Positions 6,411 to 33,188 of a stretch of 48,653 bases of DNA are shown here, one piece after another. The notes under the pieces are model-generated. The model had not been told where the DNA came from. It worked only from the letters and a program-made list of their open reading frames with translations, and ran no database searches. The position numbers and the translations under genes are program-made. Positions within the stretch are counted from its first letter, which is position 1. The number at the start of each line of letters is the position of its first letter. Source of the stretch: Rotaria socialis. Taxonomy: Eukaryota. The stretch is taken from contig CAJNYD010000322.1 in assembly GCA_905331295.1 (NCBI GenBank), positions 310,001 through 358,653 on the forward strand, in the 5' to 3' direction.

Positions 6411-8521
6411 TCATACAACCGGATCAACTATGATAGCTTCATCACATAATATAAAATAACCACGGTAATGTATTTCTTTAGGTGTTACATCAAAATGATA
6501 ATGTCCAGACTGTCCATGATCACTAAAAAAATGTGAATGTTCTAAACGAAAACCAGCATTATTGATATCATCAGTTAATAAAACAGATAAACAATTTAAC
6601 GGTGCAGACATATCATAAAATTTTAACCATTGATCAACTTGTTGTTTTCCCAGTAAATCTTCATTGACAAAATCTGGCATAACATGTGCTTTGACTGCAC
6701 CTTTTTCAATACGGAAGATTCCTCCAAGAGCCATTGGTTCCTTAGAATATTGTTTTAAACTACGTCTTATAGTTGAAATGAAATTATTTTCTTCTTCATT
6801 ATCATCAAATAAACGTTCTTGAACATCGATTTCAACTAAAATTGTTGATTTAGTACGATCAATTGATGATATCATCACATGTTGAAATGGGCCACATGTT
6901 TTTATTTGATATAAACTTTGGCATGGCTGTTCTCCTTGCGTTACTATTGAACTGTATGAACGTTGTGTAATGACTTTATTGTATTGATCAAGAGTCATAT
7001 TGAATACAAGTTCGCCATTAGTATTAAGATATGTTCCATCAGCAGCACCTGGTCCAATGACAAGTGTTTCTTTATTATTAATATGTAATTGATCAAGCAC
7101 ACTTGACATATCAAAACGTATTGAATGACCATGTTGAAATTCAACATTTTTTGCTCCACCTATTCATACAATCGAAATTAAATCGATCAATTTTTGCAAA
7201 ATAATTGAACAATTTACCTAATTGACAAAACATTCCATTTGTTCCGAGACTTGATCCTGCTAAATTCCAAGGTTCAGCAGATAAATCCATCTTGTTTACT
7301 TCATTATTTTGTACTAATCTTACTTTAACATGTTTATAAACTTGTTTTAATTCTTTTTCAATGGCTTGAATCATTGATTCTCCTTGATCATTTGGTATAA
7401 ATAATGGATAACGAACAATACGATAATCTCGATCAGTATATGTTTGCTTATGTTTCGCCAAATCTAATAGACGTTGATCACGCCATAGTTTTTTATCAGT
7501 TAAGCCACTACCATTTTCACCTACTGGATATTTTGAACGAAAATATTTATCAACTTTTTCGATAGTTTCTTGTGTCCAATCAGATGGGAAATTCATATCA
7601 GCTAAAACACGTTGCATTGATGAACCATATCGATCAAAATCTATTTGTATAAAAAAAAGAGAAAATTCATCAATACATTTTTCTTTTTTGAATTTATCGA
7701 AAAAAAACAGTAAATACTCTACAGTCAATAATTCCTTTTGGTGCATTGAGATCAATTGTTTGAAATGGTCCCATAAATGACCATCGGCATGCTAATCCAT
7801 GTGTTATTGCTCGATCAACATCTTCAGGTTCAGCTATTCCATCTTGGACTAATTGCAAAGCTGATGAAAGAATAGCGTATTGAAGACGATTTACAACAAA
7901 ACCATCAACTTCTTTTTTAAGTCGAATAGGTTCCATACCAATCGAACGATATCTTTCCATAGCTAAATCAACAAAAGCTTCATCTGTCCATGGCGCACCA
8001 ATTATTTCAACAAGTGGAATTGTTGTTGGTGGATTTATCGGATGTCTAAATAAAATATCAATGAATAGCATGTTCACATATTGTCAATATTGAACTTACG
8101 CAACAATACAACGATTTCTTGTTGTCATCTGTTCAGTAAATTTCGATGGCATAATACACGATGATGAACTTGCAAATAAACTATTCAATGGAATGATTTT
8201 ATCGAGCTGTAAAAATAGATTTTTTTTCATTTCAACATCTTCAGGTATACATTCTTGAACATGATCAATACCTTGCCGAAATAATTCGTTTAATTTTTCT
8301 TCATCTTCAATTGTGTAAACATGTTTGAAAATATCATCTACTGTTTGATTAAATAATAAATTAAAGCGATCAAGTTGTTCAAGTTGTTGACGAATATCAG
8401 CTAGAGCTAAAGTGAGCATCGATGGAATGGCATCAAATAGATAAACATCATGTTTAGTTCGAGCAAATATTACACTCCAACAACGACCAATCAGTCCCGA
8501 GCCAATTATTACTACACGCAT
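6411..8521 (-). CDS. CRYL1: Fusion of L-gulonate 3-dehydrogenase (lambda-crystallin/CRYL1, 3-hydroxyacyl-CoA dehydrogenase family) and C11orf54/DUF1907 zinc enzyme; 4 exons, 638 aa
   Basis: Exons 8521-8100, 8045-7723, 7640-7218 and 7159-6411 are joined by GT-AG introns with compatible phases (1917 nt = 639 codons). The N-half has GSGLIG (Rossmann), QECIPE, AHPINPP, GFVVNRLQYA and WRDQRLLDLAKHK. The same exon continues without a stop into DUF1907 (DLSAEPWNL, LGGAK, IGPGA, KAHVMPDF, RLEHSHFFSDHGQSGHYH). Confidence 0.9.
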
Positions 8522-8616
8522 ATCTACAATAAAAAAACAAACGAACAATAAAGAATTCATACAGAAACTACTCTATCAATATTTATTCGTAAAAATACAC
8601 AAATACATTATTAATA
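8522..8616 (-). promoter_or_regulatory. 95-bp intergenic spacer containing the unc-79 polyA signal, a U/GU-rich tract and a 3' splice acceptor 2 nt before the CRYL1 ATG (putative trans-splice site)
   Basis: On the minus strand, AATAAA at 8587-8582 is followed by tttattgttcgtttgtttttttattgtAG (AG at 8525-8524) and then AT-ATG. Confidence 0.6.
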
Positions 8617-11600
8617 TTATAAACTATAAAATTGTGCAGCATGACTTGACTGTGTTTCGATTTGTCCAATTTTAAATTGTAAACGATTAAGCCATTTGAG
8701 TAAAATAGCTAAAACACACACACATATATATATATATATAAACTATTTGCCATTCTAAAAACAAATTAGAAGATTTTTTCAACATACCATACATAAATCG
8801 TAAATCTCCTTGTGTTTCCGATGATGGTTGATGATTTAAACATGTTTGAAGACGAACTTGAACATGAGCCGGTAATTGACTCTGATGTGTATATAAAACA
8901 GGTACCCACATAGCAAATAACTATTGAAATGTAAATAAATTAAAAAAACATTGGATTGACTGTATAAAAAATAAAAGATAACATACATTAGCTAATACTA
9001 TTGAATTTATTTCTTGTAATGCCTCAATTAAACTTAAGAAATGTAAATTAACCATCTCTGCAAGCTGAAAATGAATAACAAAAAGTAAATATTATTTATC
9101 AAAATAAACAACAAAAAAAAACAAATAACGATCAATATAATTAAAGCTTGATATAGACGCACATATTTAAATGTATGACATCAAAAATACCTCACGATGT
9201 TTGTTAGGACTTTCTTTATCCTGAAATTTATTATTGGTGTTTCATTTTTATTTCTTCTCATCGAATTCTTGTTTCTTTTTCTTTTTAATTTTAAATACGA
9301 AAAATAAAAAGAATGACTATGTACTTACCACTTTTGAATGTGACAGTAAATGAAGTATACCCGGTGTAATACGAGCCCAAAAATCCATAATAGCTACTAA
9401 TGCTTCAGGATCATGTCCTCGGTTAACTTGCTCACAATACATTGTCCATAACTGAAATATATAACAGAAAACAAAAATTAATTTTAAATCAAATAATAAA
9501 ATTAACTTAATATATCTTACTTGACAAAGTATAAATGAATGAAAAAGAGATGACATATGAATAACAGATGTTTTCGATTGATCAGCAAAACCAGTTAAAA
9601 TATATAAAATATAATCAGCTATTGATTGACTTGCATCAACAGGTATTGGATGACATATTATTGTTCCTTCATTTCGTGTTATAGCTGCATGTGTTAATGA
9701 ACCGATCATTAACCATGAAAGAAATCTTATACGATCAATGCAATCAACAAAATCTTTGGCTCTAAAAAGCAACAATAAAAATACAGATACTTTTTTTACA
9801 TACATAATAATAAAAATACAAACCCTTGTTGTACAGAAGTAGGAGGATTGTAAAGCCATGGAAGAAAACGAACAATTGCTTTTGAATCTCTTTGTCCACC
9901 TTTAGTAAATTCTAAAGCAAGATATTGTGCAAGACCAGCTTTTAATTGGCCGCCTAATGTATCTTCTGTTAAATTTGATAATTGTTGTTTTTCGCTTTTT
10001 TCTTTCATTGTACTCTATTGAAAGAAAACAAAAACCAGATAAATTTCTGTATTATTAAAGTATTTGTTTAGCTTACTTTAATTTTTGTTATTGTGTGAAT
10101 ATCAGCAATAAATGCAACTGTTTCATTAAGATAATGTTTCATACATTCAGCTCCATTTGTTGTTACCTAATTTGTAAAGAAAAATTTTAAAAATTCGTTC
10201 AGAAAAATTCTATTTCACAAAAGTAAGTAAGAAAGAAAGAAAAAAAGAAAAATATCACAGCACTAGTATCACAAACGCACAACATTATGAGGATCATATG
10301 CACGAACGTCATCGCTGACAATGGCCGATGCATGAATTGTACCACCCGAATCAAGTAAAATTAACTAAATTAATATTGAAAAACATTTATTTCGATAAAA
10401 GAAAAGAAAAACTATAAGAAAGCAATTTTTACTTGAATCATTAGAAGTAAATTTCTATCTGGACATGGATATCGATGAAGCATAGCTTCAACAAGAACAT
10501 TTACAATACATCGTGGTAGTAGAAATTTTTCTCTATCCTGTCATAGGAAAAGAAATTAAAGATTATTATAAAAAAAAGTTTTCTATTGTCTTGTATGAAA
10601 TGTTTACTCGTGTAAATGTTCGATTACTTAACGAACATAATTCAATAATATGTTCCAATTGAAATGTTCCATTTCGTAAGATAAATGTTAATAGTTTTGA
10701 AAATGGATCAAGAACAAGTCGCACATTTGCTATATATGGTACTTTGAGTATATTCATCATAATTCGAAGTATGGGTGTTAAATCATAAGTAACCTGTGTA
10801 CTTGATTTAATCGTCGTATAAACTCGTGTTAATTTATCAAATAAAAAATCAAATTCAAGAAATACACTTGTCCATAATTGGATCGGAGAATCGATTGGAA
10901 TATATTCCATGAATTGTGCAATATTGCTGAGTAATGTTGTACAAATGTCAAGAGACAGGCTTTTTTGTTTATTCATGTCCTATTCATTGGTAAAGATACA
11001 GAAAAAATAATAATTATATATATATATATATGAATTTCATCTTGAAACAATATTTCGATATTCAAAAGTTGCAGATGTCAAGAAAATGTTTCTAAATTTC
11101 TTTGCCCGTAAGTTCTACATATGTGATAGGAGAAATATGCAGCAATGCTAATGATTGTCATCGTAGACAGATACACGATTCATTCTTAAAAAATAGTACG
11201 TAGACCAGTCTTGTAGAGCACTGCATTGGTATAGAGGTTTGTGTAAACTAAAATCTAAGGGCTTAGTTTCTCTCTGATAGAACATAAAATTCAGCTACTT
11301 TCTTAAAATAATCTTCGCCGTCGATATAATCGAAATTAGTATAAGATTTTCAGTTTTTTTCCTATGATTTCATTGTTTTAAATATTGATCTACGTCTATA
11401 TTTATGATCTGTTGGCTGGTTGACCATCACGGTAACATTTCTAAATACGAGATTTATAAAAGAGAAAAAAAACCTACATTGAGAAGCCATTTAAGTGCAA
11501 TAATTGAATTGAACTCGGGAAAATCATTCAGTGATAAAGCAATTGTATGTAATAGTCTTTCATCTGAAAACAAAACACACCATAGTCTCAATTGAACTTA

Positions 11601-14600
11601 TAGAAATATATTCTATCGAATACAAACCTCGAAAATTTTGTTGAAAAAATTGATAAGAAATATTATTCGCAGCTAATTGTTGAAATGTACAACGAATAAA
11701 TTGTTGCGCAATACTTCTTGAATTAGCTGGTGCGACAACAGTCGAATTTTCTTGCCATGTATATATATGAGATGCAGCAACTCTTCCAATGGTTTCAATC
11801 ATATCCATGAGTAATGGTGCTGCAATAGCTGGTTCACGATGAACAAGTGTTCCACATACAATTATACAATAACCAATACATTCTTCATTGTAATATTCAA
11901 TCGGTTGTCCACATTTATCACATTTAGGTGCAGCTATCATTTGATTATGTAAATCTGTATCAGCATATGGATTGTCTGATTCCTCGTTCGTTGCTGTTGC
12001 TGATCGTTTAACACCTGATGATGTTGTAATACCAGCTTTCAATGGACCTTGTGATGATGATGTACGTGTTGGACGACTGAAGATATTTCCAAAAACAAAG
12101 TGTTAACAATATAAACATAAGAAAGAATTCTATTAACCTGAGCGTTGGTGATCGAACATTTGAATCGTCTTTATGTTTAGTTTTTTTACTATAATAACTT
12201 GGTTTTAATTTTCCACCAGGTGCCGCACCGCCCATACTAACTAATGTTGATGAAGATAATGATGTTACTTTAGGAGTTTTCGGAGGACTTTCTTCTGTAA
12301 AGAGAAAAATTAAATCACATGTATGAACTAACATTTCGGATTAAAAAACTAACCTTTGAATCCACCGACACTAGGTTTAAGTAAAACAGTTTCAAGTTTA
12401 CCACGTTCAGCTGAATAAATAACACGTGACAGTTCTTTGACTCCTATGAAATATTTACTTTTATCAAATTTATGTGATGACATAAAAATAATTTATTACC
12501 TTTGATACCCTTCGCGTCAAGTTCAGTTAATTTTTCTGTTGGTAAAATTTGTGTTGTTGATGATGCTGTTCCAGCTGATGTGCCGGAATTTAAACCAGTT
12601 GCACTAGCTGTTCCACTACTAGCAAAAAAACTTTTCAAAAATTCTGTGTAAGATCGGCCAGTTGAAGGCATTTGATCTTCTGTTTGTCGAATTGTTAATG
12701 GTTCATCAAAGCATTCTATTTCGGGTTTATAAAATCTATTTTAAATCAAAATCTATAGAAAAAAAAAGAATAGAAGCTTTTTACGAATTACTTTGCTTTA
12801 ACTTTTTTCGGGGGTGATAATAATCTAAAACGTTTATGTTCAGCAATACTCGCTGATTCTGATTGTGTGTCACCTTCTAAATCATAACGTGTACCTAATT
12901 CATTTAGTTCTACTTCGCGTATATCATCAAATGGTCGTGAAGATCCTTGAAGAAATTTGTATAATTTTATTTAAATTAACTTGTCAAACAAACCAAAAAT
13001 TCCTTACCTCTTCTTGAGCCCGCTACTTTTGGTGTAATTCTACCGCTAAGACCGCAACCAGTTGCACCGAATGGTGGTGTTTCACATTGATGATAATGAC
13101 TTACAATTGTGTTCATAGCAACACGTGTTAAATGTTGAATTGTCACCGCATTTGATGTATATTGATACTAAACATAAGTTTTAAATAAATATTCACTTAT
13201 TTTTAAATAACAAAAAACAATATCAAGAATATTTACTTTATACAAAATAATAATAAGAGTCATCAACCATGAATCTCGTAGACTAGGGTCAATTCGTCCA
13301 AGCGTATTTGATGCACAGATATGATCATAAAATTGCATGGTTGCATTTGAACATGTAGAGAATTGTAGAAATGAGAGAAAAAATTGTAAAAGTATACTTC
13401 CAAGATTAAAATTATAATCAAGAACTTTAGGTAAATTAGATAAAAAAGCATGAAAAACTGGACTTCGTCTAGAAAAATAAAACATGATAATAGTAGAATA
13501 TATTTAAATAGATAACAACAAACCGAATTTTGCTTGGTAGCGTAACAAACGTTCGATTTGTTTGATTATAACCAAGTAACGAACATATATGTCGAACAAC
13601 AACATTCTAGGAAAATTAAAACGAAGCAGAAATTTTAAGAAATAATTAATAGATTTGGTTTTACTTGTTGCTTAAGCATGATTCGATCTTCGTTAACTTG
13701 ACTTTGATCATCTTTCATCATAAACTACAACAACAACGACAACAGCAACAAAGAAATGATTTTCTCTTATTTTAAATAGTGAACAAATTTTACTTTCGTC
13801 AGTAAATTAACCAACAATTGTAGTGTTGATTTGTCACTATTATCAACAGTAGGTGAAATAAAACTTCCTATAGAATCTGTTTCAATTTTGTCAGTGTTAT
13901 TGTTAGATGGTTGTGAATTAACTATTGTTGTACGTCGATGATGTGTGAGAAATCTTGCTGATGTTGATATCGGTTTAATTGAATCTGTTCTTGCCATAGC
14001 AAAACGTATTTGATTTAATTTACGAATAAAATGTTCACTTTCAGTATTAAAACCACCAATACTTTGTGGACTTATTAATTCGCCTGATTCTTCCATATTA
14101 ATTTGAGATTCAATTGATAATGTATCAAAACGATTAAGAAAATATTCCCAACTTAAAATTTTTATTGTTGAATTATTTCTTAATAATATCGTATAAAGTT
14201 TCGATAGACGATGTAATATTATTGAACGATCATTTATTACAGTATCGAATTGAAATTCAAGTGAACACATGACACTTTTAAATGATGCATCGCCTAATGT
14301 CTCTAATGAACACATGGCTTTTTGACTGACAGTAGGCTCAACGTCTTCGATTGAAGTTATTAAATTGAGAAAAGCATAAGCAAGTACAGATAGAACATTA
14401 TAATTATTTTTGATTAATTTTGGTTTAAGTAGTGAATAAAGCGCAATAACTCGTGTGCCTAAAACAAAGAGAAAAGAAAAAAGTTTATTGAAACGTCTTT
14501 ATTCGTTAAAAAAATAGAATTTTCTAAAGCAAGAGAAAGCATATTAATTTACCAGCTGATGAACGAACTTTCCAATGTGTACTTGAAAAATCTCGTTCAA

Positions 14601-17600
14601 GTATATCCCATAAAGCAGTTTTTCCAGGTTCATAATTAAGTGCATGAAGAAGTAATGGTACACAACATTCATTAAGATGACCATGTCCCAATGCAAGAAT
14701 TTTCCAAATACTAAATTAGAAAAAAAAACGATCAATGATATAGTTTTTATAAAAATAATAATTAATTTACTGTGGAACAAGTAGCTTTTCAAGACAATAC
14801 GAAAGAAAACCTCGATTATCTTTCGCTGCTGTTTCTAAACATTCATCATTTAAAATCAATAATTTTAAGCAACATAATAAATAATAGAGTGCATCAATAT
14901 CAATGATTCGGTCGAGTTCCTAAAAAGTAGAAAATTTTATCATTCAGAAAACTTCTTTTCTGTATCTACCTTGAGAACCGAATAAAAAAATTGTAAATGA
15001 ATATGAAGTGTATTGAGTTTAAAATAGAAGACACCCTGCGATGTGATCCATATTCCACCATCAGGATTATTTTCAACTTTAAGTTCTGATGGTGCTGTTG
15101 TAATTGCTGTTGTTGTAGCATTAGCATTACTAGTGGTTTCTTCATTATTTAATGATGTCGATGATGATGATAAACTTTGATTATCACCCGCTGTTGGTAT
15201 TTCAATACCTAGTCAGAGAATTTTTATTTTTATGCACATAAAAACAATGGAGAAAGAAAAAACGAAAGTAAATTGGTCACGGTAATTATGAAGGAACTAC
15301 GTTTAGGAGTTCGCCATTGATAAGTTCGTACTCTATATACACGATAGACTCAAGTGACATGCGAATAGTTTTAACATCAACAATACCATTAAGAATTTCT
15401 TGGGCAAAGCTATCATGATCTTACGGAAATTTCAATCTATTGTCATAGGATATTCTAATCAATTAATCGAAGCTAATTCAAACTGAACTTTTGTCAACTG
15501 ATAGATCTACTTTTCCGTAGAATGTATACTTTGAATAATTTTTCTTGCACACAATACTGCATTTTGAAAACTCAGCAAGATTTCAAGAAAGAGACGAGGA
15601 TCATATGCATTTTCAAAATTAATAACCGTATCACAACAGTACTTTTCTCAAAATGAACTTTTCAGAAATAGTTTAATTGCAAGTAGATTTATCGTTCAGT
15701 AAAATTTCCGATCCAATCATGATGAAGTGATTTTATTTCACTTACTGAACTTTGGTTTGCCTGTTGATTTAGCTGATTGCAATAATGTTTGTTGTTGTAA
15801 TAATTGCTGTTGCTTAAGTTGTTGTTGTTTAAGTTCGCTTAAATTTGGTAATTCAAGTTCAGGTAATTTTATTTCATCTCGTGGTGAAATATATTTGAGT
15901 ATATCTTGTGCTATTGAAAACCACAAAATATATTCTTCACAAAATGAACATTGACTTGATGATGTTCGACAACGATGACGACGAGCCCATGGTAATATTA
16001 ATTGTTTATTCATTAATGACAAAATTTCTTTTGATAGAGGATTATACATTCCTTGATGTTGTGGTGTTTGTTGAAGTTCCATCTAATAAAAAGAAAGAAA
16101 ACAAAGAATTTATTAACAGATATTAAATTCTAATAATAAATTAGCAAAAAAAAAGAATATTCTACTTGTTTTAATGTCATATCCACCATCATAATACAAC
16201 ATGTTGAATTAATTTCACTTTCATTAATAATAAATTCTTCTTCTTCTTCTTTTATAATTGAAACCATTTCTTGTCCAGTCATTTGTTGTAACATCAATTG
16301 ATGACGATGTGCACGATATGTTTCATATGTATCAAAAACGAGAAATTTATTTGTTGATGAGGATCCTGACATTGTTGTTAAACCGGCGATACCACCTGTT
16401 GGATTCGCTACATTTCCTTCATCTTGAGACAACATCATTAAATTTAAACCATTGTCCATGGATTGCTCATTTGATGATGAAGCTGCCATTGTATAGTGTT
16501 CACGGCGTTGTGCACGCGATTCAAGTTTTTGTAAAGAATTTGTACCAGTAGTAAATATTTGAACAAGCAATGGAACTGGTATATATATATCGATTAAACA
16601 TAAAATTTGTAACCATTGTAAAGCTTGTTCTTGAACACTAGCTGGTGCAGGAGATTGAAAACGATCGGTAATAAAATGATATAATTGATCACGTGTTAAC
16701 GATGATGGAGACATATCAGGATCTGGATCGAACATTTTTCTATTTTGTTAAAAAATATTACAAGGAATTTACAAATAAAATGAAAAAAGTTAATTACCGA
16801 AAAAGTAAATTTAAGTTAGTTAAATCATTTTCTGGTACTTCTAATCGAATTGATTCCATCCAATAAGGCATTATATAGTCCCAGATCTATAGAGAAAAGA
16901 AATTTCATTATTAAAATTCAATGTGAGAATGAGTCCAGCATCAAATCAAAACATTTGTGGTCTACTTGTAGTCCTTTGTTGATGACAAAAACTTTTACAA
17001 ATTATCATCAAAAAACTAATTTTAAATAGGCCTGATTTTTTACCACAAAATAGAATATAGCGAACTATATTTAGCAAAATGACTATTGTAATAAGATATA
17101 TTACTAGTATGTAAATGAAAACTAGAAGTCATCTCAATGAACAATGTATTTTGAAGAAATACTAGAGTCTTCTGAGAAAATAATGATAATACTACTTTTC
17201 GAAGTTCAAATTGAACGCCCGTATAAAGACAGTCCTTCAAGAAGTATATTCTTTCATAAAAGTTTCACGTCTTTTGATTAATTCTACTCTGAAATAAGAA
17301 TCTCAAATCTACCATCACACATGAACGATGTAAACGGAACACTTTTATCATCGCTATAGTCTAGAATATTCACAAATAACAATACTCACTAGGTACTGTT
17401 GTTCGATAATGTTTAAAAAGCAAAAGAGAAAAGGAACCTGCTTGATGTTAACAAGACAACTGTACAACTGTATTTTTTCGGGTTATTCATAAGAAACATA
17501 ATCTGGATTTAAAAAGTGATTTATCACTTACGAGACTGCTATCATAGGATATTTTTTTTTTAATATCGAAGACCGAAATGATAAACTTACTTCATATGTA

Positions 17601-21510: not shown

Positions 21511-23771
21511 ATGGCCGCCTCATCGAGATCAGCAACCGTAGGCGAATTGCGTCGAATGTTTTCCAACTTAGATTCAGCTGTAATCGAAACTGTGTTAGCA
21601 GCTAATAATGGCCAAGTTGACGTTACAATTGATCATTTACTTACAATGTCAATTGATACTGAAAATGAAAATAATGTTCAACAAGTGAAAAAATTTCAGC
21701 TTAACTGTATATATTTAATGATACTTTTAAATGTTATAGGTGACACCAACAACACTACTTCAACAGTTACCAGCTGTTCTTAATGTATACGATGATGATC
21801 CACCACCTTGTAAACTATTTTTTCTTACTCCCACATTAGTAAATATTTTATGTATATTCATTCTAGATCCTGGTCATGATACAAAAGGTAGTAATTGTGC
21901 ATCATCAACAACAACCACCATACCTTTTCTTCCACAACGTTTCTCATCAAATTATCCGTCATCAATAAATCAAAGTCAATTAAAGAATATACATTTTGAA
22001 GAAGAGTAAATAACAGATTTAGTTTATAAATAATCATTTTTTTATGTTTTGCATTACTTTTGAAGTGCATATTGTCTACAAGATCTTCAAGTACGAAGAT
22101 GGAAAACAGCTTATGATCAATATCGTATTTGTTATATTGGGGATTTACCAGACGATTTTCTTCGAGTAAAATTAACATCCAAATTTGAACCAACAAACCA
22201 ATCGAAGGTATATAATTGTTTTCAATGATTGATCTTATTATTTTAACAATTACAAATAAATAGAAAAATATGCATGGACAACATGATAACGCAGCACGAT
22301 ATATTGAAGATGAACATTTAGAAGAATTTCTTCGAAATGAAGAATTTTTAAATGAACTTCGACGTAATCAAGATTTTATAACAACTCTAAATTCAGGTTT
22401 GCTTTTATTTATCTCTTCTTCTATAAAAGAAAAGATGACATGAACATTTAGATCAATCTACTCGATCAACAGCATCGAATCAACAAAATCGATCATTTAA
22501 TTATTTAAGTACAAAACCATTACCAATGCCAACACCACCAACCGTTGAAACCCCTAAAACGCCAAAAGTTCGCGCAAGAATGCTCCAAAATGCTCTTACA
22601 CAAATTGAACAAGGACAAACAATAAAAAGTATGAAGAAAATTATTTATTTAATATATTTTTAAAATTGCTTTTCTAATATTAAGCCTCGATGGTTCCACA
22701 AGAATCTATCACTCAAAACGAAAGTTATTCTTACGGAAAAGGTATTTGAATAGCATTAAAAAATTCGATTGCTTTCATTTTTGTTATCTTCTCTGAAGAT
22801 AATCATGACCGAATTCCACTTCCACCTGCACCATCTGCCAGCGAATTCGATCCGTTACGGCCGGAAAGTAATGAAGAATTTATTGCTCGCTTAAAAAATA
22901 TGGGAAAAAGTAATAAATTTCGATACGAAATAATGTTTAAGAAAAATATTATTATTTTTCAAAAGATTCAATGGACAAATTCAATCAGTTAGCGCGTCGA
23001 TTTTCTACACGTAAAAATACAACAATAAATCCTGGCAAATACTCGAAACAACCATTGTAAGTTCTTCTTGATGTCAACTAGATCATTATCAAAAATACGT
23101 ATATCAAAGTCAATTGTTTGATATTAATTCATTGAAAAGAAAGATACAATTCTTTGACATCAAATTTAGCTGTTTAAATTTTGATGCAAATTAGAAATAG
23201 TTAGCTGTTCCTTTTATTTTATTTTACGTTCTTAATTTCATCATTGCTAATGTGTAAAAACAATAGATACAGAACGTCAAAATATGATATCAACATGTAG
23301 AAGAAAGTGGCAAGACTGCATAGACATAAATGCAACTCGAAAACTAGATGATCAACAATAGTGATCGGAAAACTGCAAAGATAAAGAGGCTGTGTTGTTG
23401 TGCATCTCATTGATTTCATACTGTTAAAGCAAAACATTTTTAGAACAAAATTTTTGAGAATAACTTCAGATTAGGAACATGTATTTATTATTCGCTTAAC
23501 CTAGCTAGTATTGAATTTAATCATGAATGAAATTCTAAATCATTAATAAAATTTTAGTCTTATCAAACTCATGTGTTTGAATAGATCCTTATTTATTTTT
23601 GATTTATTTAGAATGGCAAACACATCAGAACGACAAATATTAACAAATGAATTCGATAGTGATGATGATCCTATTACATTGAACAACAACAACCCCGTTC
23701 GTTTTTTTTCTCCCTAAATATTATTTTCGTTTTTATTTTCATTTTAGAATCGATATCTCACTTCCGTCTAA
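21511..23771 (+). CDS. CUEDC1: CUE domain-containing protein 1, multi-exon
   Basis: N-terminal CUE domain (LRRMFSNLDSAVIETVLAANNGQVDVTIDHLLTM). CUEDC1 motifs IGDLPDDFLRV, YIEDEHLEEFLRNEEFLNELRRNQDF and FIARLKNMGK..KFNQLARRFS lie in downstream exons. Last exons are 23612-23696 and 23748-23771 (TAA). Confidence 0.88.
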
Positions 23772-24262
23772 TATCTCATCTCAATTAATTTTTTGCTCTT
23801 GTTTTTTGTTGTACTCTACTAACCATACCGTACTATTGTTGTTTTGTTCTGTAGATATTCTCATCTATTTTTATTCATATCTCAGGTTGTAGTAACCTCT
23901 TTTTAATTTTTTGTTTAACATTCGAATATCATTCAAATATTTCTGCTTAATTAAACGAGATAAATGACTTCAGAAAGAGAAAAACTAAATGTTTGTTTTC
24001 TGTTGAATAGATCGTGTATGCATGCAAGTCAGATTGTAATATGAACAGTTAAATTGAGACGAAAATCAAAAATTTCTTTAGCACTTTTTCTTTGTCTTGC
24101 GTTAGAAACTCATTATTTTACTTTTTTTTGTTTTTACGTACTGCGAAGCTTACAATTTTTATTTTTATTTATGAATAAAATAATAATCCTTTCATATGAA
24201 ATAAAACAAAAAGCTCAAACAATACATAATTGTTTTAGATATTTAACCGAAAAGACAAGAAA

Positions 24263-27200
24263 ATGAATGGTTGCTATTTGACATCTGATGATGAAAAATT
24301 CCTTGATTTAATTACTGATGAACTAGACAAATACAATTCATTAAATGATTCGTCCTTGTGTGTGTTCTTAGTTTATTTTTGATATTAGCTAATTCATTTG
24401 TTTTAATTTATTTATTGTTTATTTTTTTTTGCAGTATTCTTCTTTTCCCATCTTTATCATCTCGACATCGACTATTATTACATCGTCTTCGTGAGAAAAC
24501 CTATCCAAAGTTATTTAGTTTTTCTGTCGGTGAAGAAAGAACAACTCGTCGTACAATCATTTGTTTCAAATTACACGTTATGGATGAAACGGATACGTAA
24601 GAATGCTTTTATATATTTAGTGTGCACGAATCATTTTTTGTTTATTTAATTCCTTGGAAAAGCGTAGGAATCAACTTTTGACATAGTGAACCAATTTTAA
24701 ATGTAAGAATTCAGATCAAACCATAAAATAACCTTTTCATCTAAGTAGCTCAACACGTACATCTGGAATTTTCGATTAAACTTATTAATCTTTTGTTAGA
24801 GCATACGTAATTGATCGTTAGAATTTGGATGAGGTGAAAATCGCATGCGGAGATTTCTTACAATGAACACAGCTTGATAAAAACATGATAGTTCTTATAA
24901 ATGTGTAGAATGAGGCAGTATGCAATAACGTAGTATATGTCCGAAATATTGTAATACTTTGGCTTGTATAATATTTATAGAATTGAAAAATGAACTCATT
25001 GTGGGTAAGTTAATGCATGCATGATAGATTAAAATGGGACTTGTGGGAAAATTAATAAAACGATCTTGTTAAGGAGCATAGCTAAATAGATGACCCATCT
25101 CGTGATTGATTGGCCTTTCAAAACTCATCTGGTTGTGTTACAATGACACAAGCATTGAAGCATACGAAGTATTGCTGAGTCATCAATAAAAAGGTGACAG
25201 TCCCAGGTTGATGATGAATATCATTATTAAAAACCATGAAAATGACTATTTTGAGATAGATTTACTATAGCAGTACTATTTCAATATTAATCACTTGAAA
25301 TAAATGGTCGTCTTTAACAATTATATAATGATACTATAACAACTAATCGATCATTCAATGCATGTAAAATGATAGGCGTTCGAGTTGAAAAAGTTTGAAT
25401 ACTAAGATTTCATGTCATAGTTTTCCATAGCATTGAAAAAATAATTGTATACAATGGCCGAGTATTGGGAGTAGACCGTTAAGGTGGAATAAGTTTTACG
25501 AGAAAAGCAAAGCTCTTGTGATTTTATTCATGAATCTGAAGCATGAAACTATAGAATATTGGCTTAATCGAGACATCAAATGAATATAAATATGAACCGT
25601 TGTTAATACATTTTGTAAATCAAAATTGATAGTTAATTTGTACGTCTGATAACTGTGATTTCTCTGGCAGTGAACTATTCAGCCTATTAAAATATAGCAA
25701 TCGTGAATATTTCGACTGAGATTTTTCATTCGCTGATTTTCAATAGTTGATCATATTGAACAATTTAAATTGGTAATATTTAAGAGAAAGCAGTTTGACT
25801 ATCTCATATACTGTTCGAACAAGATTCGATAGGTTTTTGTTTGTAAATAGTTTCATCATAGTAATATGATTTAAAATATTAGAGGTTGAAGCAAATATCC
25901 CATATATTCCTCACATGATGTATTGTAATTGGTATCAATTTATTCTAATCATAAAATAGTTGCACCACTATGGACTGCATCTAATTGATTTGAGATAGCA
26001 CTATGCAAATAGTTTTTCAAAATATTATTTCAGGTATGATATGATAGAGTTGACTTGCAAGTTTTATGAACACGAATATCATTATCATGAACAATAAGTA
26101 ACGAACCTTGCCTCGATTTCTAGTTTAACTATTTAAAAGTACATTGACATTCGCTAAGCTAGTTGGCACTAATCTAAATGAAAATAACTTTCCATGGTTT
26201 CACTCTTCCGTATACTGTTTTTTTTTGTCTCGAAGATGTCATCCATAAACATAGATCAATATGATCATTTTCTCATTGTGTTTGAAGATAATAGTGTGAT
26301 GAGAAATGTTTTTATTTTGCATGTATGCTAATAGCAAATAGTATAATGTAGAACTAAATTGTTTTTTTTTGATAGTTTACATCATGAATCTTGATTTTAA
26401 TGCTTGTAAGTAGTTTTAAAGTTCAAGGACAATAATAGATCTCTCTCGAATATTAATACAATCAATGATCTATCATATGCTTGTGTAGGGTATTCAGAAT
26501 TTTTCTACATAGATTACCATATATTTGAGGAGCTAAATGTTTATCCTTGGATGTGCATCGAATTTTTTTATAATTCAATAACGATCAGAAAGTTCTCACT
26601 ACAATTACAAGATAGCAATGTAAAATCAACGAATTCTTATTGTTGATTCACAATGTTATAGTCAACAGTAGCGAATAACTGAAGAGAAATTTTCATATTT
26701 GTTGTGTAAATATTTTGACTGTTAGAGTTGGTCGACTTTAATAATTGATCATCTTTTGATCTTATTCATTTCAAATTTTTGTTGAATAAGTATTTCGGTT
26801 TGATTTATATTTTCTTGTTATCTTGGTTTTAAATGTTATTGTTGAATTTGAGATGATGAGAGATATAAAAAAATCTTCACTAATTATTTACATTAAGGGT
26901 CTGTCCATCAATATGCCCCCTTAAGTCAATAAGTAACTAATATGATGCACTGCTTAATTCATCTTTAAGATTCACATACTTCTTTTCAAATAATAATGAT
27001 TTTGATACGTAAAAGTACACTAAACTATGTGATGAAATCTATTTTTTTTTCAATTTCCAGTCTTTTCCTGAAAAATTTATTCACGTCAATACGTTGATTA
27101 GATGAAGTATACTTCGCAAAAAAAGAAAGAACTTTTTAATCTTTAAATCTATTGTAAAAATCGAATCAGTTTTGATAAGAAACATTGCATTTCGAAAATA

Positions 27201-28650
27201 AAAAGTATTTGAAAATATTTCGATTTCTACTTAAGGATAAGAGTTGAACCTTCGAATGCATTTATCCGTTTATTTAGTCTCTCTTTAATAGTATTGTTTT
27301 TTTTCCATTGTTTCAGAACGACATCACCAACGGACGCAATCCATTTGAATGGTGAATCGTCGACCAAGTACTGCTAGTCTTGTTTTTGAATAATAAAAAC
27401 CTATTTATAGTTGTAGACGTCGTCCGGACAAAGCTTTATATAAACCGCCAACTCGAACTAAAAGTTCTGAAGTTTTCGCTTCTATTTNGGAGATCTTCAA
27501 CAAAACAATAGTAGAAGCAAAGGAGCAAAAAGTAAAACAGCTCGTCCATCAGCTGAGCCTTATGTACCGCCATCCAGACGCAGCCAACCGGTGACCACAG
27601 AAACACTTTCATCTACACCTAGATCATCTGTTATTCAAAGCAAAAAACAAGATGATGGAGCGGAAGAAAAAGAAGATGAAGAAGAAGAAGAAGAAGAAGA
27701 GGAGGCGGAGGAGGAGGAGGACTGGGAAAAGTTATTAGAAAACAGTCAAAATCCTCTATATAATGATCTTGTTGAAGAAGTAATATATGCAACAATCTTT
27801 TATTCTATTTCAAAGAAAAAAATTTGTTTTTTTTGTATTCCAAAGATTCAATCTAAATTCAAAGACAGTGTTCAGATAGAAAAACCGACTAATGACTATT
27901 CTCAATGATCAGTTGATGATATACAAATAAAAGAAGCAGAGCTAGCTCATGTAGTTGAAGTTTCAAATTTCCCGTCAACTTTCCGTACTGAAGATCTTTC
28001 AAATTCATTCAAAATACTTACGTATAATTTGTTATATACTACATTTCGAAAATATTTCTGATTTTATTTATAATTGAATACTAGTCGAAATGAATTCGAT
28101 ATAAAATGGGTCGATGAAACGCATGCCCTTATCGTTTTCCCAGATGCTAACACGGGTAAAGATTAATGTTATTATTTTTTGTTTTCTAAACAAATATTAT
28201 TAATAATTTAGCATTGGATGCACTACAAATGGTACATCCTCTATTAAAAATATGTGCTATGTCTCAAGCCTCATCTGCGTCGAAGAAAAAAGCAAAGAAT
28301 TCACTTGGTATAAAAATATTAGTTTTCATCTGTTCAATTGATGCATTTTGGTTTTTCTAATACTATAGAATTTCTTCAACCTTATAAAACTCGACCACAA
28401 ACATCGTCGTTAACAGCTAATCGACGTATATGTGCTGCATTGGGTTTGAAAAATCCAATGAGTAATGATAAAACTAAAACTGAAAGACAAAAAATTGAAA
28501 CAGCTAGAAGTAAATAAATCGTAATTCTTGTTTTAACTTGAAAAGAAAGCATATTAATATTTTGTTTTTCTAGAACAAAAAATTCGTGACAAAGAAGAAC
28601 AAAAAACAGTTTGGGATGGTGGCGTTTTACCTGCACCTTCAACAACATAA
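24263..28650 (+). CDS. R3HCC1: R3H and coiled-coil domain protein (R3HCC1/R3HCC1L-like), multi-exon; carries an in-frame TGA at 27906-27908 (possible nonsense allele)
   Basis: MNGCYLTSDDEKFLDLITDELD...ILLFPSLSSRHRLLLHRL...FSFSVGEERTTRRTIIC is an R3H domain (exons 24263-24357, 24435-24596). After a 2.7-kb intron come RRPDKALYKPP, an acidic tract, the RRM-like HVVEVSNFPSTFRTEDL / FDIKWVDETHALIVF, and LQPYKTRPQTSSLTANRRICAALGL. Stop TAA at 28648-28650. Confidence 0.85.
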
Positions 28651-28841
28651 ATTCTTTTTATATTTATTTAATATTTTTTTTGTATCTAATCAAAAAATTT
28701 GGTCACAATATGTTCGATTATCTTGTCTTCTTTTTTTTTCTTGTCTTGCTTCCATTCAGACTTTTGCCTATGATGTTTACATATTCGTATTGGTGAGCAA
28801 ATAAAAAAGAATGGGATTACTTCGAATTTCTAGATTTTTCA

Positions 28842-29237
28842 ATGTCATTTCAACGATCAACTGAATCAATTATAAAACAATTATGTTCAGGAATATTATC
28901 GGGTGGTATTATTGGAAAATTGATAAGTAAAGGTCACTATGTTCTAGCATATGTAGCATTTACTTCAATTGGTTTAATTGATATTGCATATCATTTGAAT
29001 TATTTGAAAGCACATATAACACATTTAACATATGATCAATTAGCAAGTCGCAGAGACATCAGATCTAGATTTAACAACTTCCAACGAAGCGTACAAAGAG
29101 AGGTGCTTGATCCAAATGATGGTTTGAATCGCGAAGTGACCTGGCTATGGAATGATGTGAAAAGACACATTGATGGACATATCTATTTTGGAATGGGTTT
29201 TACCATGGCATGTTTAGCAAGTGCTGTTCTTTTCTAG
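28842..29237 (+). CDS. FUN14-domain-like mitochondrial outer-membrane protein (divergent), single exon, 131 aa
   Basis: The Gly-rich hydrophobic helix QLCSGILSGGIIGKLISK, a second helix ending IAYHLNYLK, a charged amphipathic middle and the C-terminal hydrophobic IYFGMGFTMACLAS follow the FUN14/FUNDC layout. The similarity was judged by eye only. Confidence 0.6.
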   Translation: MSFQRSTESIIKQLCSGILSGGIIGKLISKGHYVLAYVAFTSIGLIDIAYHLNYLKAHITHLTYDQLASRRDIRSRFNNFQRSVQREVLDPNDGLNREVTWLWNDVKRHIDGHIYFGMGFTMACLASAVLF

Positions 29238-29479
29238 AGCATTTGCCGGTGAAAAGTCATCTTATTTTGCGCTAAAGATCAATCGGTGCAATTTGCTATT
29301 AGAACTATTGACATATATTATTGTACTATGAAACGTTACTCCAGAAAAATAAAAGAATTTTCTCGACGCATATTATTTATTTTCGTCGAATATTCGATGC
29401 ACTTCAATTAATCAATAAATAGGTTTCAGTTCCACTGTGGATGATTTTCATTTTATTTCGAATATAATTGATTCCTATA

Positions 29480-29788
29480 CAGGCTTACCAACTAGGGATG
29501 GGAGGGGAGGGGAGGGGAGGGGGTAGCTAATCCCTCTCAAAAGTTGAAACGTTCCAGGCTGTCTGCGTGGTTCTCTAATAAATTCTACCAAATGCAGAAA
29601 CGCAGTGTTCAAGCACTGATTATGACCTTTCATGTAGAAAATCGCAAAGGAACATATTTTGTTAGCAAAATTTCTCAGGGAAATCATTAATTTAACGTTT
29701 GTTATTGAGTTTCTATCGAAAAATAAGACAAGGCACTTTCTGCCAAATATTTAATCTCTCCCTCTCTTCAATACAATCGACAACCCTG
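29480..29788. mobile_element. Non-autonomous hAT-like MITE (309 bp) with 8-bp target-site duplication
   Basis: Identical TTCCTATA at 29472-29479 and 29789-29796. Imperfect TIRs CAGGCTTACCAA / (revcomp) CAGGGTTGTCGA. An 8-bp TSD with CAGG termini is typical of hAT elements. Confidence 0.75.
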
Positions 29789-29942
29789 TTCCTATATTGA
29801 AGAATTTTTATGATCTAGGTATGTCAGAGTTATTTGCCTTTCTAAAAATTAAAAATTGAGCATGACTATACAAAGCATAAGTACTTCTTTTTGTAGACTA
29901 ACATTTGATTGATCTATGCTGTTTTCGTTTTTGTAGATAGAT

Positions 29943-32448
29943 ATGGAATGCAATCATTTAGAACATGGTGACCTACTAATGAGTGGAGCTTTATTGGATA
30001 GTTTCGTTGATTTACATCGATCACAACTTGAATTATCCGGTGTACCACGAGTATTTTATCCTATTCTATTTGACAAACTTCAAAAACAGGTTAGGAAATA
30101 ACCAGAACAATGTCTTCAATTCGTTAATGTTTTTTTTTTCTTTTAAAATAGATTTTTGATGCTGGTGAATATTTTGGTATAATCGAAGTAGAAAATGATG
30201 AAGGTGAAACTGTTCAACGTAAAGTTCGTGTTACTAGTGAATGCAATATTCTCAAAGACGATCCTTCGATGTCAGTTAAAATGAGATTTTGTTTTGCAAT
30301 GCCTATTTACTTATCATGTGATTTCGTTTTGATTACAGGATCTTTCTTATTGATCATGCTTATACTTATCGAATAAATACAATTCGAAATGAACTAGAGC
30401 AATTACCTGAATTAGTCGAACGACTTTCTCGACTAATGTTTATATCGTCCGATGCAGAAAACAAAATTAATGCTATTATTGAACATATGTGGAAGTTTAA
30501 TCATACATATACATTAGCTGTTGATGGAGGTGATGCTGAAGATCGCGAACCATATTGGTATATTCGAGATGAATTTGGTTCAGCTGTAGAGCATTGTGAT
30601 CAAGCGAATGTTCGAATGGCACCTTTTCTTTCAATGATCGATGGGCAAATGTATACATTATTATGGCTAATTAAAGATATTGAATGCAATGGTATGTAAT
30701 GTGTAAGAATATTTTCGAGTTCATAGTTAGAGAAATTATTGATTTGATTTGATTTTTATATAAAATAAAATAATGTATAAATCAAATTTCCATAAAAAAT
30801 GTTTAGAATCGGTTTCTGTCGATTATGTTTGTGGAACACAGGATGAACTAATCCGACGCGCTAAACTTGTTCCTTGGACTGCCGCTGATCTATCTGATGA
30901 TATTGATTATCAACAAACAGAGCCAAATGAACAGTATTTTAATGTATATTTGAATTTAGTTTTTATTCGTTCAATCATATTATTATTTAATACTTTTAAT
31001 ACTATATAGACAGGACGAGAAAGTGAAAAGCTTCCGTCATCAGAAACTTATTCTATGGTTGATTTAACTAAACTCAATAGAACAATTAATGTTTTAACTG
31101 ATGTTGAACTGGTTCGTGATAATCTAGCAGATAAACGTTTTCAATTAGTTGAAGATTTATCTCATGCCGACATTATTTTTACAAGAAAACACTTTAAAGA
31201 TTTCAAGTAAGTGATAAAACAATATTTTATTTTGTTAATCAGTTCTTTTCTTAGGAATCTATGTGAAAATACTCAACAATTCATTAATCAATATCCATTT
31301 GAAAATATAATTAATATAAAAGATCTTTTAGCTATTATTTGTCGTCGAACATCGTCGTCAATTGATAAAGAAACACTGCAATCATATCCATTATGGTTAC
31401 CAACAACATTCAATTTAACGTATGAATTACCAAAATTGATTTCCTATTTTCAACATCGAGAAAAAAAGTAAGATTTTTTCTTGTTTAAAATAAGTTTTGA
31501 AAGAAATCTTCTTTGAAATTGAATCATAGAAATTTAGATAATCATTGGATTGTAAAACCGTTTAATTTAGCACGATCGATTGATACACATGTAACAAAAA
31601 ATCTTAATTCAATTATTCGATTAGCAGAATCAGGCCCAAAAGTAAAATATTATAGTATTTATCTTTACTCGAAATGTTTCATTTTTATTTGTTTTTATCT
31701 TCTAAAATTAGATTGTTTGCAAATATATTGATAAACCTTTATTATTTCATCGAGAAGAGAGCGGTTTAGTTAAATTTGATATTCGCTATATTGTTTTATT
31801 ACGTTCATTAGAACCGTTGAAAGTTTATGTTTATGAAAAATTTTGGCTGCGTTTTGCAAACAAGTAAATAATTAGTGAGATGTTCTTTTCAGTCTTGATT
31901 GGATTTATTATAGACCTTATTCATTAGACAATAATTATGATGATTATCAAGTGCATTTCAGTAAGTCAATAAAAACAATTTTTTCATTGATAAATTTGTT
32001 CGTTTCTATAGCTGTAATGAATTATCGGTATGCGCAAAATTTGAAAAAGATTACATGTGAAGAATTTGTGCCTTTATTCGATGAACAACAACAAAATCTT
32101 AAGTGGGCTGATGTTCAAGTACAAAAATAAGAACAATAAGATGAAATTAGTCTAATTGTTTTGTTTAATATATTCTAGGAGAATATATTTTCAATGATTC
32201 ATCAAGTTTTTGAACGTGCAACAATGAGAAAACCACCATGTGGTATGCTACCATGTCATCGATCACGTGCAGTCTATGCTGTGGATTTAATGCTTGATCA
32301 AACTGGTCAACCATATTTACTAGAAATGAATTTTATGCCTGATATTGAACGGGCTTGTTCATATTATCCAACATTTATGGATGATATATTTCGTACGCTT
32401 TTTCTTGATGAATCAAATAGTAATGTGATCGACATTTCATCGAAATAA
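29943..32448 (+). CDS. TTLL12: Tubulin-tyrosine ligase-like protein 12 (SET-like + TTL domains), multi-exon
   Basis: Motifs [88 protein letters not shown] and [25 protein letters not shown]. Stop TAA at 32446-32448. An in-frame upstream mini-exon 29862-29880 (MTIQSI) with a 60-bp intron may extend the start. Confidence 0.93.
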
Positions 32449-33166: not shown

Positions 33167-33188
33167 TCTCTCTCTCTCTCTCTCTCTC
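33167..33188. repeat. (TC)11 microsatellite
   Basis: Read directly from the sequence. Confidence 0.9.

What the first reader, a model, noticed from the sequence alone, without database searches (positions are those of the whole stretch)
6411..32448. Two candidate polycistronic units read outward from one 430-bp bidirectional promoter
Seen: leftward are unc-79 and the CRYL1-DUF1907 fusion. Rightward are CUEDC1, R3HCC1, FUN14-like and TTLL12, with stop-to-ATG gaps of 491, 191 and 705 bp (about 390 bp without the MITE). The junction pattern repeats. AATAAA 24174-24179 precedes acceptor ttttAG 24237-24238 by 57 nt (56 nt at the unc-79 junction), and AATAAA 28800-28805 precedes ttctAG 28832-28833. 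The flanking regions are gene-sparse. Inference: six unrelated genes may be transcribed as two divergent operons.
Basis: inference. Interest (0 to 1): 0.7.

Follow-up and report, generated by a model that had tools for sequence, protein, structure and literature searches.

The report
Likely gene operons in bdelloid rotifers
Six unrelated genes of a bdelloid rotifer lie in two back-to-back rows whose order is largely kept in other bdelloids, and RNA contigs show the rotifer spliced leader on one downstream gene, leader-sized front ends on others and upstream messages reaching within 23-44 bases of the next gene, so the rows are likely operons, although the shared long transcript and the single promoter remain untested.

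Summary
The window is from a bdelloid rotifer (Rotaria). All six genes and the quoted gaps (430, 491, 191, 705 bp) are real. RNA contigs from 3 studies support trans-splicing. The FUN14-like mRNA starts at acceptor 28833 with 17-19 letters of the published rotifer spliced leader (SL). CRYL1-DUF1907 (3 of 3 runs) and TTLL12 (1 run) start at their acceptors with leader-sized tails, letters not displayed. unc-79 RNA reaches 44 nt, and R3HCC1 RNA 23 nt, from the next acceptor. R3HCC1-FUN14-TTLL12 order holds in related loci, and the wider cluster appears kept in Adineta. Corrections: the 56/57-nt repeat is selective; acceptor 24238 got no RNA support (R3HCC1 contigs begin at 24434); a CUEDC1 contig reads through 21502 without leader. 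Against: over half of bdelloid mRNAs carry SL anyway, no two-gene contig was shown, and no start-site data exist. Verdict: SL-resolved operons are likely at the two tight junctions (0.6); six genes from one promoter is less sure (about 0.35). This is a known mechanism, but my searches found no paper describing rotifer operons. The scan flagged another bdelloid candidate earlier, without RNA data.

The parts
6411..8521 (-). CRYL1-like 3-hydroxyacyl-CoA dehydrogenase fused to DUF1907 (4 exons); downstream gene of the left row
   Evidence: Pfam 3HCDH_N, 3HCDH, DUF1907; the same fusion of about 638 aa in Rotaria, Adineta steineri and a Logan contig
8524..8525 (-). Acceptor AG of CRYL1-DUF1907, likely SL trans-splice site
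   Evidence: Contigs of X1, X4, X2 all begin at 8525 with 11, 18 and 5 unlaid 5' letters; letters not displayed
8570..8587 (-). unc-79 poly(A) signal (8587-8582) and lowest RNA position seen (8570), 44 nt before the CRYL1 acceptor
   Evidence: X4 spliced contig covers 8918-8784 and 8704-8570 with 3 letters left; distances
8618..21080 (-). unc-79 (NALCN channel complex subunit); first gene of the left row
   Evidence: Pfam UNC-79; exons collinear with human UNC79; spliced contigs
21081..21510 (.). 430-bp divergent spacer, presumed bidirectional promoter; acceptor-like AGs at 21087-86 (-) and 21501-02 (+)
   Evidence: Sequence; X2 contig starts at 21439 and reads through 21502 without leader; no start-site data
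21511..23771 (+). CUE-domain gene (CUEDC1-like); first gene of the right row
   Evidence: Pfam CUE; spliced contigs, RNA seen to 24027
24174..24238 (+). Two AATAAA (24174, 24200) and the acceptor AG 24237-38 before R3HCC1 exon 1; predicted SL site, no RNA support found
   Evidence: Sequence; no contig on exon 1 among the rows shown; exon 1 peptide conserved in Adineta ricciae and metagenome ORFs
24263..28650 (+). R3H + RRM-like gene (R3HCC1-like); window copy has an assembly gap (N 27488) and TGA 27906-08 that RNA contigs read as TGG
   Evidence: Pfam; joints and A>G at 27908 in X1, X3, X4
24433..24582 (+). Exon-2 acceptor AG 24433-34 where R3HCC1 contigs begin, and conserved internal Met (ATG 24580); candidate alternative SL site giving an isoform without the R3H domain
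   Evidence: X1 21, X4 11, X2 1 unlaid 5' letters (21 = SL minus its final AG), but the tool skipped the T-rich stretch 24392-24432; Met in 15 of 15 homologues
28756..28841 (+). Conserved intercistronic block: (Y)nCAG, 33 indel-free nt, GTGAG, AATAAA 28800, acceptor AG 28832-33
   Evidence: Present in window and 7 of 7 loci; 78-88% identity for 28756-28804 against 51-61% in introns; R3HCC1 RNA runs unspliced to 28808
28832..28833 (+). SL trans-splice acceptor of the FUN14-like gene (shown)
   Evidence: Loose 5' ends of 17 nt (X1) and 19 nt (X4) identical to the Rotifera SL of PMC3795323 Table 1; no match in the window with up to 3 mismatches
28842..29237 (+). Single-exon 131-aa gene, weakly FUN14-like
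   Evidence: 30 homologues, named ones all bdelloid; weak Pfam FUN14 only in orthologues
29414..29450 (+). FUN14-like poly(A) signal and RNA ends (29431, 29433, poly(A) at 29450)
   Evidence: tables 7 and 8
29472..29796 (.). MITE 29480-29788 with imperfect CAGG termini and 8-bp target duplication
   Evidence: Duplication at 29472 and 29789; absent from 7 of 7 related loci
29935..29936 (+). Acceptor AG of TTLL12, likely SL site
   Evidence: X1 contig begins at 29935 with 19 unlaid letters, not displayed; YAG|AT kept in 7 of 7 loci
29943..32448 (+). SET-like + tubulin-tyrosine-ligase gene (TTLL12-like); last gene of the right row
   Evidence: Pfam SET_TTL, TTL; spliced contigs to 32475-32481

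Best explanation
The downstream genes are likely cut out of shared precursor RNAs that probably start in the 430-bp divergent spacer: the upstream message would be cleaved behind its AATAAA, and the rotifer spliced leader, seen on the FUN14-like mRNA and inferred for CRYL1-DUF1907 and TTLL12, would give the next gene its capped 5' end. Shown: the gene layout, the leader on FUN14-like, contig starts at acceptors, upstream RNA reaching within 44 and 23 nt of the next acceptor, conserved order. Inferred: leader identity at three sites, read-through transcription, absence of internal promoters, and the promoter itself. The case is strongest for unc-79/CRYL1-DUF1907 and R3HCC1/FUN14-like; that all six genes depend on the one spacer I put at about 0.35.
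For: (1) SL letters at 28833 in X1 and X4, plus 13 and 4 unlaid letters in X2 and X3, matching PMC3795323 Table 1, absent from the window. (2) Contigs start on an AG with at most 21 extra letters at CRYL1 (3 of 3 runs), TTLL12 (X1) and R3HCC1 exon 2 (ambiguous). (3) The one contig shown over the 5' end of a first gene (CUEDC1, X2) has no leader; Ciona operons show this pattern of upstream genes free and downstream genes trans-spliced (PMC1488885 section 13). (4) 44 and 23 nt between upstream RNA and next acceptor, in the range given for Oikopleura (23-30 nt) and C. elegans (about 100 nt). (5) TTLL12 follows FUN14-like in 7 of 7 loci; R3HCC1 exons precede it in 6 of 7, the seventh being cut short; AATAAA 25-31 nt before the FUN14 acceptor in 8 of 8 sequences. 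(6) Public gene models fuse CUE with R3H in R. socialis, R. magnacalcarata and A. steineri, and R3HCC1 with FUN14-like in A. steineri and A. ricciae, proving adjacency; such chimeric models mark operons in flatworms (PMC12582326 passages). (7) CRYL1-DUF1907 and FUN14-like orthologues have accession numbers 30-94 apart in 6 R. sordida and 4 Rotaria sp. pairs, and fall in the order CRYL1, CUE-R3H, FUN14 in 5 A. steineri sets (linkage inferred from numbering, pairs picked by eye from truncated lists).
Against: Over 50% of bdelloid transcripts carry SL (PMC1925144 passages), so 3 or 4 leader-bearing downstream genes have a chance of about 0.06-0.2 without any operon. No contig shown bridges two genes (tables were cut: 143 and 89 pieces hidden). 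Predicted site 24238 has no RNA support, and CUEDC1 RNA was seen only to 24027, 209 nt short of it. The FUN14-like to TTLL12 gap from RNA end to acceptor is 484-503 nt (167-186 without the MITE), poorly conserved (14-35% identity), and leaves room for a promoter. The conserved block before FUN14-like, with its acceptor-like and donor-like ends, could be an own first exon or core promoter. Leader letters were displayed at one site only. A neuronal channel subunit upstream of a metabolic enzyme is an odd pair for obligatory co-transcription (own knowledge). The runs are only guessed to be RNA, and X1 and X4 (same year and size) may be one campaign.
Confidence: 0.6

Rival explanations
1. Tightly packed genes with their own promoters: each downstream gene starts inside the last exon or 3' UTR of its neighbour, and SL trans-splicing only trims an ordinary outron, as for most bdelloid mRNAs. 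A hybrid form (weak read-through plus dominant internal promoters) belongs here.
For: SL is on more than half of bdelloid transcripts; no bridging contig shown; the conserved, fixed-length block 28756-28804 could be a core promoter or first exon; FUN14-like/TTLL12 and CUEDC1/R3HCC1 spacers are long enough for a promoter.
Against: Two promoters would have to lie inside transcribed 3' ends of neighbours, since only 44 and 23 nt separate upstream RNA from the acceptor. It does not explain why unrelated genes keep their order and spacing from Rotaria to Adineta.
Confidence: 0.32
2. The neighbours are partly joined by cis-splicing into real fusion mRNAs (CUE-R3H, R3HCC1-FUN14), as many public gene models propose.
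For: Fused models in four species; a conserved donor-like GTGAG lies 40-52 nt (GT to AG) before the FUN14-like acceptor.
Against: The fused models use different junctions between assemblies. RNA contigs splice CUEDC1 to its own last exon and 3' UTR (joints 23056-23612, 23696-23748), R3HCC1 RNA runs unspliced across the GTGAG, and FUN14-like and R3HCC1 contigs start at their acceptors. The acceptor-to-ATG distance before FUN14-like varies (8 against 7 nt), so no frame is kept.
Confidence: 0.05

Closest known systems
SL-resolved operons of tunicates (Oikopleura dioica, spacers 23-30 nt; Ciona intestinalis, mostly none; PMC1488885 abstract and section 13; PMC7986045 passages)
   Same: One SL type used on both operonic and ordinary genes; unrelated genes head to tail; downstream genes trans-spliced, first gene need not be; very short gaps at two junctions.
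   Different: Dicistronic cDNAs were found in Ciona, none here. Two junctions here are much longer. Two candidate operons face away from one short spacer.
Chaetognath operons (PMC2481426, PMC12460157; passages)
   Same: Closest relatives with described operons (Gnathifera); no operon-specific leader; operons called from gaps under 250 bp plus SL evidence.
   Different: Different leader sequences. By stop-to-ATG distance only two of the four junctions here (96, 191 bp) would pass a 250-bp rule.
Flatworm operons and internal SL acceptors (PMC12582326, passages)
   Same: Chimeric gene models at candidate operons; acceptors shared between cis- and trans-splicing, as suspected for R3HCC1 exon 2.
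   Different: Other phylum and leader; there backed by raw-read counts.
C. elegans SL2-type operons (PMC7986045 and PMC12582326 passages; Ur element recalled)
   Same: Poly(A) signal followed closely by a trans-splice acceptor; conserved intercistronic sequence.
   Different: Needs a dedicated SL2; here the leader at a downstream gene is the single general rotifer SL. No shared U-rich element was identified across the four junctions.
Bdelloid SL trans-splicing (Pouchkina-Stantcheva and Tunnacliffe 2005; not held, seen only as cited in PMC1925144 and PMC3795323)
   Same: Same 23-nt leader.
   Different: Described for single mRNAs; operons listed as not determined for Rotifera in PMC2481426 Table 4.

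Membership tests
SL-resolved eukaryotic operon | Organism has SL trans-splicing | tested here: met
   Bdelloid by best named hits; rotifer SL on a contig from this locus
SL-resolved eukaryotic operon | Same-strand genes with very short gap from upstream 3' end to downstream acceptor | tested here: met
   Met for 2 of 4 junctions (44 and 23 nt); 484-503 nt for FUN14-like/TTLL12; at most 209 nt for CUEDC1/R3HCC1
SL-resolved eukaryotic operon | All downstream genes receive the SL | tested here: inconclusive
   Letters shown for 1 of 4; leader-sized tails at an AG for 2 more; R3HCC1 only at an internal acceptor next to a stretch the tool skipped
SL-resolved eukaryotic operon | Each gene yields its own polyadenylated mRNA | tested here: met
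   Separate spliced contigs per gene; poly(A) shown for FUN14-like at 29450; other ends inferred from contig limits
SL-resolved eukaryotic operon | Unresolved polycistronic precursor detectable | tested here: inconclusive
   None among rows shown; only low-depth assembled contigs, tables cut
SL-resolved eukaryotic operon | One promoter, no independent start sites before downstream genes | not testable with these tools
   Needs CAGE, PRO-cap or ATAC data; contigs cannot show starts
SL-resolved eukaryotic operon | Gene order conserved in relatives (supporting) | tested here: met
   7 loci; fused models and accession order in Rotaria and Adineta; unc-79 position in relatives not looked up directly
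C. elegans SL2-type operon | Operon-specific second leader on downstream genes | tested here: not met
   The leader on FUN14-like equals the one general Rotifera SL
Ciona/SL1-type operon without spacer | Poly(A) site abuts the trans-splice acceptor | tested here: inconclusive
   R3HCC1 contig stops in the A-run at 28808 (poly(A) or internal priming; 24 letters not displayed); AATAAA 25-31 nt before the AG would put cleavage near the acceptor; unc-79 end is 44 nt away
Bidirectional promoter | Two divergent start sites within about 1 kb | not testable with these tools
   Head-to-head layout of 430 bp shown; RNA reaches 21439 on the + side; no start-site data
FUN14 family | Pfam PF04930 above curated cut-off | tested here: not met
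   No hit for the window protein; 15-20 bits against cut-off 22.5 in three orthologues

The most novel reading that the evidence does not exclude
Bdelloid rotifers have true, old, SL-resolved operons, here two divergent ones driven from one 430-bp promoter. A conserved intercistronic element (acceptor-like CAG, 33 fixed bases, U1-type GTGAG directly before the AATAAA) couples 3'-end formation of R3HCC1 to leader addition on the next gene, and alternative trans-splicing at R3HCC1 exon 2 makes an isoform without the R3H domain from a conserved internal Met.
Probability: 0.2. Interest if true: 0.78.

Novelty: new member of a known kind. Interest (0 to 1): 0.58.

Why it matters
Operons resolved by leader splicing are known from nematodes, tunicates, flatworms and chaetognaths. 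Rotifers were listed as 'not determined' in 2008, and nine library searches showed no paper describing them. This locus gives named junctions with RNA support that can be tested by RT-PCR and long reads. If true it adds a lineage to the question of how often operons arose, allows a test of the idea that operons speed recovery from growth arrest in animals that revive from desiccation, and shows that bdelloid annotations contain false fusion genes that SL sites can correct. Specialists would expect such operons, so the value lies in testability more than surprise.

Tried and rejected
No whole genome was held, so the genome-wide test of spacing against SL use could not be run. The look-up of sequencing runs listed no holder on record as RNA; the 5 listed runs are guesses, 4 were laid and 3, X5 never. 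Their contigs are spliced at GT..AG, so they behave as RNA. Contig depth: FUN14-like is far deeper than its neighbours in X1 and X4 (384 and 625 against 10-19) but not in X2 and X3; the tool states that contig depth cannot rank genes, so I do not use it; if real it would favour an internal promoter or unequal stability. Lack of cover on R3HCC1 exon 1 and on the unc-79 5' end is no evidence. The conserved block shows no covariation (0 of 15 predicted pairs) and the window has no Rfam match, so a structured RNA is not supported. Reading the 33-nt block as a coding exon: frame 0 is open in 8 of 8 and ends in a conserved stop, but most changes are non-synonymous and a reading from the upstream ATG keeps frame in only 2 of 7; left open. 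AG|AT context: 3 of 3 leader-bearing 5' acceptors against 7 of 28 cis acceptors (P 0.027), a post-hoc hint that also fits the untested sites 24238 and 21086. The CUE search among representatives gave only unnamed bdelloid-like hits and no further gene-order data. One of four unc-79 exon searches found nothing. Terminon retroelements were checked as a possible earlier case of bdelloid polycistrons: no mention of leader or polycistron in PMC6431247 or PMC8557442 passages; the primary paper was not read. Flot 2013 and Pouchkina-Stantcheva 2005 are not held; they and their supplements may bear on the novelty claim. No supplements were read.
Full report
Organism and genes. The single-exon protein at 28842-29237 has 30 homologues; the best is 97% identical and named Rotaria magnacalcarata, and all 4 with a species name are bdelloids. 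An R3H exon peptide is identical to Rotaria socialis proteins. No whole genome was held. Pfam confirms UNC-79, 3HCDH + DUF1907, CUE, a sub-threshold R3H, and SET_TTL + TTL. Three of four unc-79 exon searches hit human UNC79 in collinear order. The FUN14 label is weak (no hit in the window protein, sub-threshold hits in 3 orthologues).

Observation. All quoted coordinates and gaps are correct. AATAAA lies 20-60 nt before the acceptor at 3 of 4 junctions, more than shuffles give (P about 2e-4; 29 of 410 background sites). That null is weak, since any tightly packed gene end carries a poly(A) signal. The 56/57-nt 'repeat' is selective: a second AATAAA at 24200 gives 31 nt, the FUN14 junction 26 nt, and the TTLL12 junction has none within 350 nt. 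The MITE is real (8-bp duplication at 29472 and 29789; absent from 7 of 7 relatives).

RNA evidence. Five runs were listed, none on record as RNA. Four were laid on 20500-33200 and three on 8050-24700; they come from 3 studies, are assembled contigs, and are spliced at GT..AG. FUN14-like contigs start at 28832 in 4 of 4 runs. The loose 5' ends shown for X1 (17 nt) and X4 (19 nt) equal the Rotifera SL of PMC3795323 Table 1, whose last AG aligns on the genomic acceptor; the leader has no match in the window. CRYL1-DUF1907 contigs start at AG 8525 in 3 of 3 runs with 11, 18 and 5 unlaid letters. The X1 TTLL12 contig starts at AG 29935 with 19. These letters were not displayed, so SL is inferred from position and length (at most 21 = SL minus AG). 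R3HCC1 contigs start at the exon-2 acceptor 24433-34 with 21, 11 and 1 unlaid letters, not at 24238; the tool skipped the T-rich stretch just upstream, so intron letters are not excluded. Exon 1 is nonetheless a conserved coding exon. A Met just after the R3H domain is kept in 15 of 15 homologues, and two A. ricciae models start there. An X2 contig of CUEDC1 starts at 21439 and reads through 21502 without leader. The unc-79 5' end gave no data. Upstream RNA reaches 8570 for unc-79 (44 nt before the CRYL1 AG) and 28808 for R3HCC1 (23 nt before the FUN14-like AG; the contig stops in an A-run). FUN14-like ends at 29431-29450, 484-503 nt before the TTLL12 AG; CUEDC1 RNA was seen to 24027. No contig among the rows shown bridges two genes; 143 and 89 pieces were hidden.

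Conservation. A metagenome scan gave 7 loci from 144 pattern matches; L006 and L007 are nearly identical, and the loci may come from one campaign. TTLL12 follows in 7 of 7 (stop-to-ATG 246-373 nt); R3HCC1 exons precede in 6 of 7 (160-191 nt; L002 is cut short). AATAAA sits 25-31 nt before the FUN14-like acceptor in 8 of 8 sequences. The distal spacer is as conserved as coding DNA: 78-88% for 28756-28804 and 81-89% for 28805-28841 in 6 of 7 loci (57% in L005, where the pairwise alignment slipped), against 51-61% in introns and 81-86% in exons (L002's exon and intron values were dropped because the alignment ran past the contig end). It holds a pyrimidine tract and CAG, exactly 33 nt, then GTGAG. 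No covariation and no Rfam family. Public models fuse CUE with R3H in R. socialis, R. magnacalcarata and A. steineri, and R3HCC1 with FUN14-like in A. steineri and A. ricciae, which proves adjacency; the RNA joints argue these fusions are annotation errors. Accession numbers of CRYL1-DUF1907 and FUN14-like orthologues lie 30-94 apart in 10 Rotaria pairs and in the order CRYL1, CUE-R3H, FUN14 in 5 A. steineri sets, one sharing a 32,617-base contig length. This suggests that both arms stay linked across two bdelloid genera; it is an inference from numbering, the lists show at most 4 accessions per protein, and unc-79 itself was not looked up.

Mechanism. Most likely (0.6) polymerase starts in the 430-bp spacer in both directions and reads on past the first poly(A) signal; cleavage frees the upstream mRNA and the SL caps the next one. 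The two tight junctions leave no room for a promoter plus outron outside the neighbour's transcript. The main rival (0.32) is separate promoters hidden in the neighbours' 3' ends with ordinary SL trimming: more than half of bdelloid mRNAs carry SL (PMC1925144), the conserved block could be a promoter or first exon, and the other two junctions are longer. Real fusion mRNAs are unlikely (0.05). That all six genes depend only on the one spacer is about 0.35.

Known systems and novelty. It works like the single-leader operons of tunicates and chaetognaths (PMC1488885: abstract and section 13 read; PMC7986045, PMC2481426, PMC12460157, PMC12582326, PMC3795323, PMC1925144: passages only). Membership is not complete: the precursor and the single promoter are unshown. 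It fails the SL2-type test. Nine searches listed no paper on rotifer operons, judged from listings and the passages named; PMC2481426 Table 4 gives 'ND' for Rotifera. [quoted passage not shown] Flot 2013 and the 2005 SL paper were not held. The scan noted one other bdelloid candidate, without RNA data (e1-2593265); I did not test it and do not count it as support. Verdict: new member of a known kind, interest 0.58.

Noticed in passing
window 28756-28841; L001-L007: Non-coding block as conserved as exons: pyrimidine tract, CAG, exactly 33 nt, GTGAG, AATAAA, acceptor. Could be a cassette or 5' UTR exon, a short alternative last exon (frame 0 ends in a conserved stop), a core promoter, or a U1 site that tunes poly(A) cleavage.
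   Followed up: partly
window 24433-24582: R3HCC1 contigs begin at the exon-2 acceptor behind a weak donor; first ATG is a Met conserved in 15 of 15 homologues, suggesting an isoform without the R3H domain made by alternative trans-splicing.
   Followed up: partly
window 6411-8521 (-): CRYL1-like dehydrogenase fused in frame to DUF1907; the same 637-639-aa fusion occurs in Rotaria and Adineta steineri and in a 2021-2093-nt RNA contig length.
   Followed up: partly
window 27488 and 27906-27908: The N hides a collapsed stretch (related proteins have about 22 more residues) and shifts the frame; an in-frame TGA is read as TGG in contigs of 3 runs. Likely assembly error or a rare allele, not a dead gene.
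   Followed up: partly
window 4107-5210 (+): Intact single-exon gene with ankyrin repeats and an ADP-ribosyltransferase domain, convergent on CRYL1-DUF1907.
   Followed up: no
window 39594-41341: A 1.75-kb near-perfect inverted repeat (96% identity to its own reverse complement), probably a foldback element or an assembly artefact; a 270-bp imperfect direct repeat at 42940-43418.
   Followed up: no
window 24597-27317: R3HCC1 intron of 2.7 kb; the matching region in L005 and L007 is far shorter, so it probably holds an insertion. A 555-bp intron in CUEDC1 (23057-23611) and a large early unc-79 intron were also not examined.
   Followed up: no
acceptors 8524, 28833, 29936, 24238, 21086: All five read AG|AT, against 7 of 28 cis acceptors; possibly a preference of bdelloid trans-splice sites.
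   Followed up: partly
public gene models P0063-P0066, P0072, P0073, P0081, P0091, P0100, P0108, P0111: Bdelloid annotations often fuse these neighbours into chimeric proteins.
   Followed up: yes
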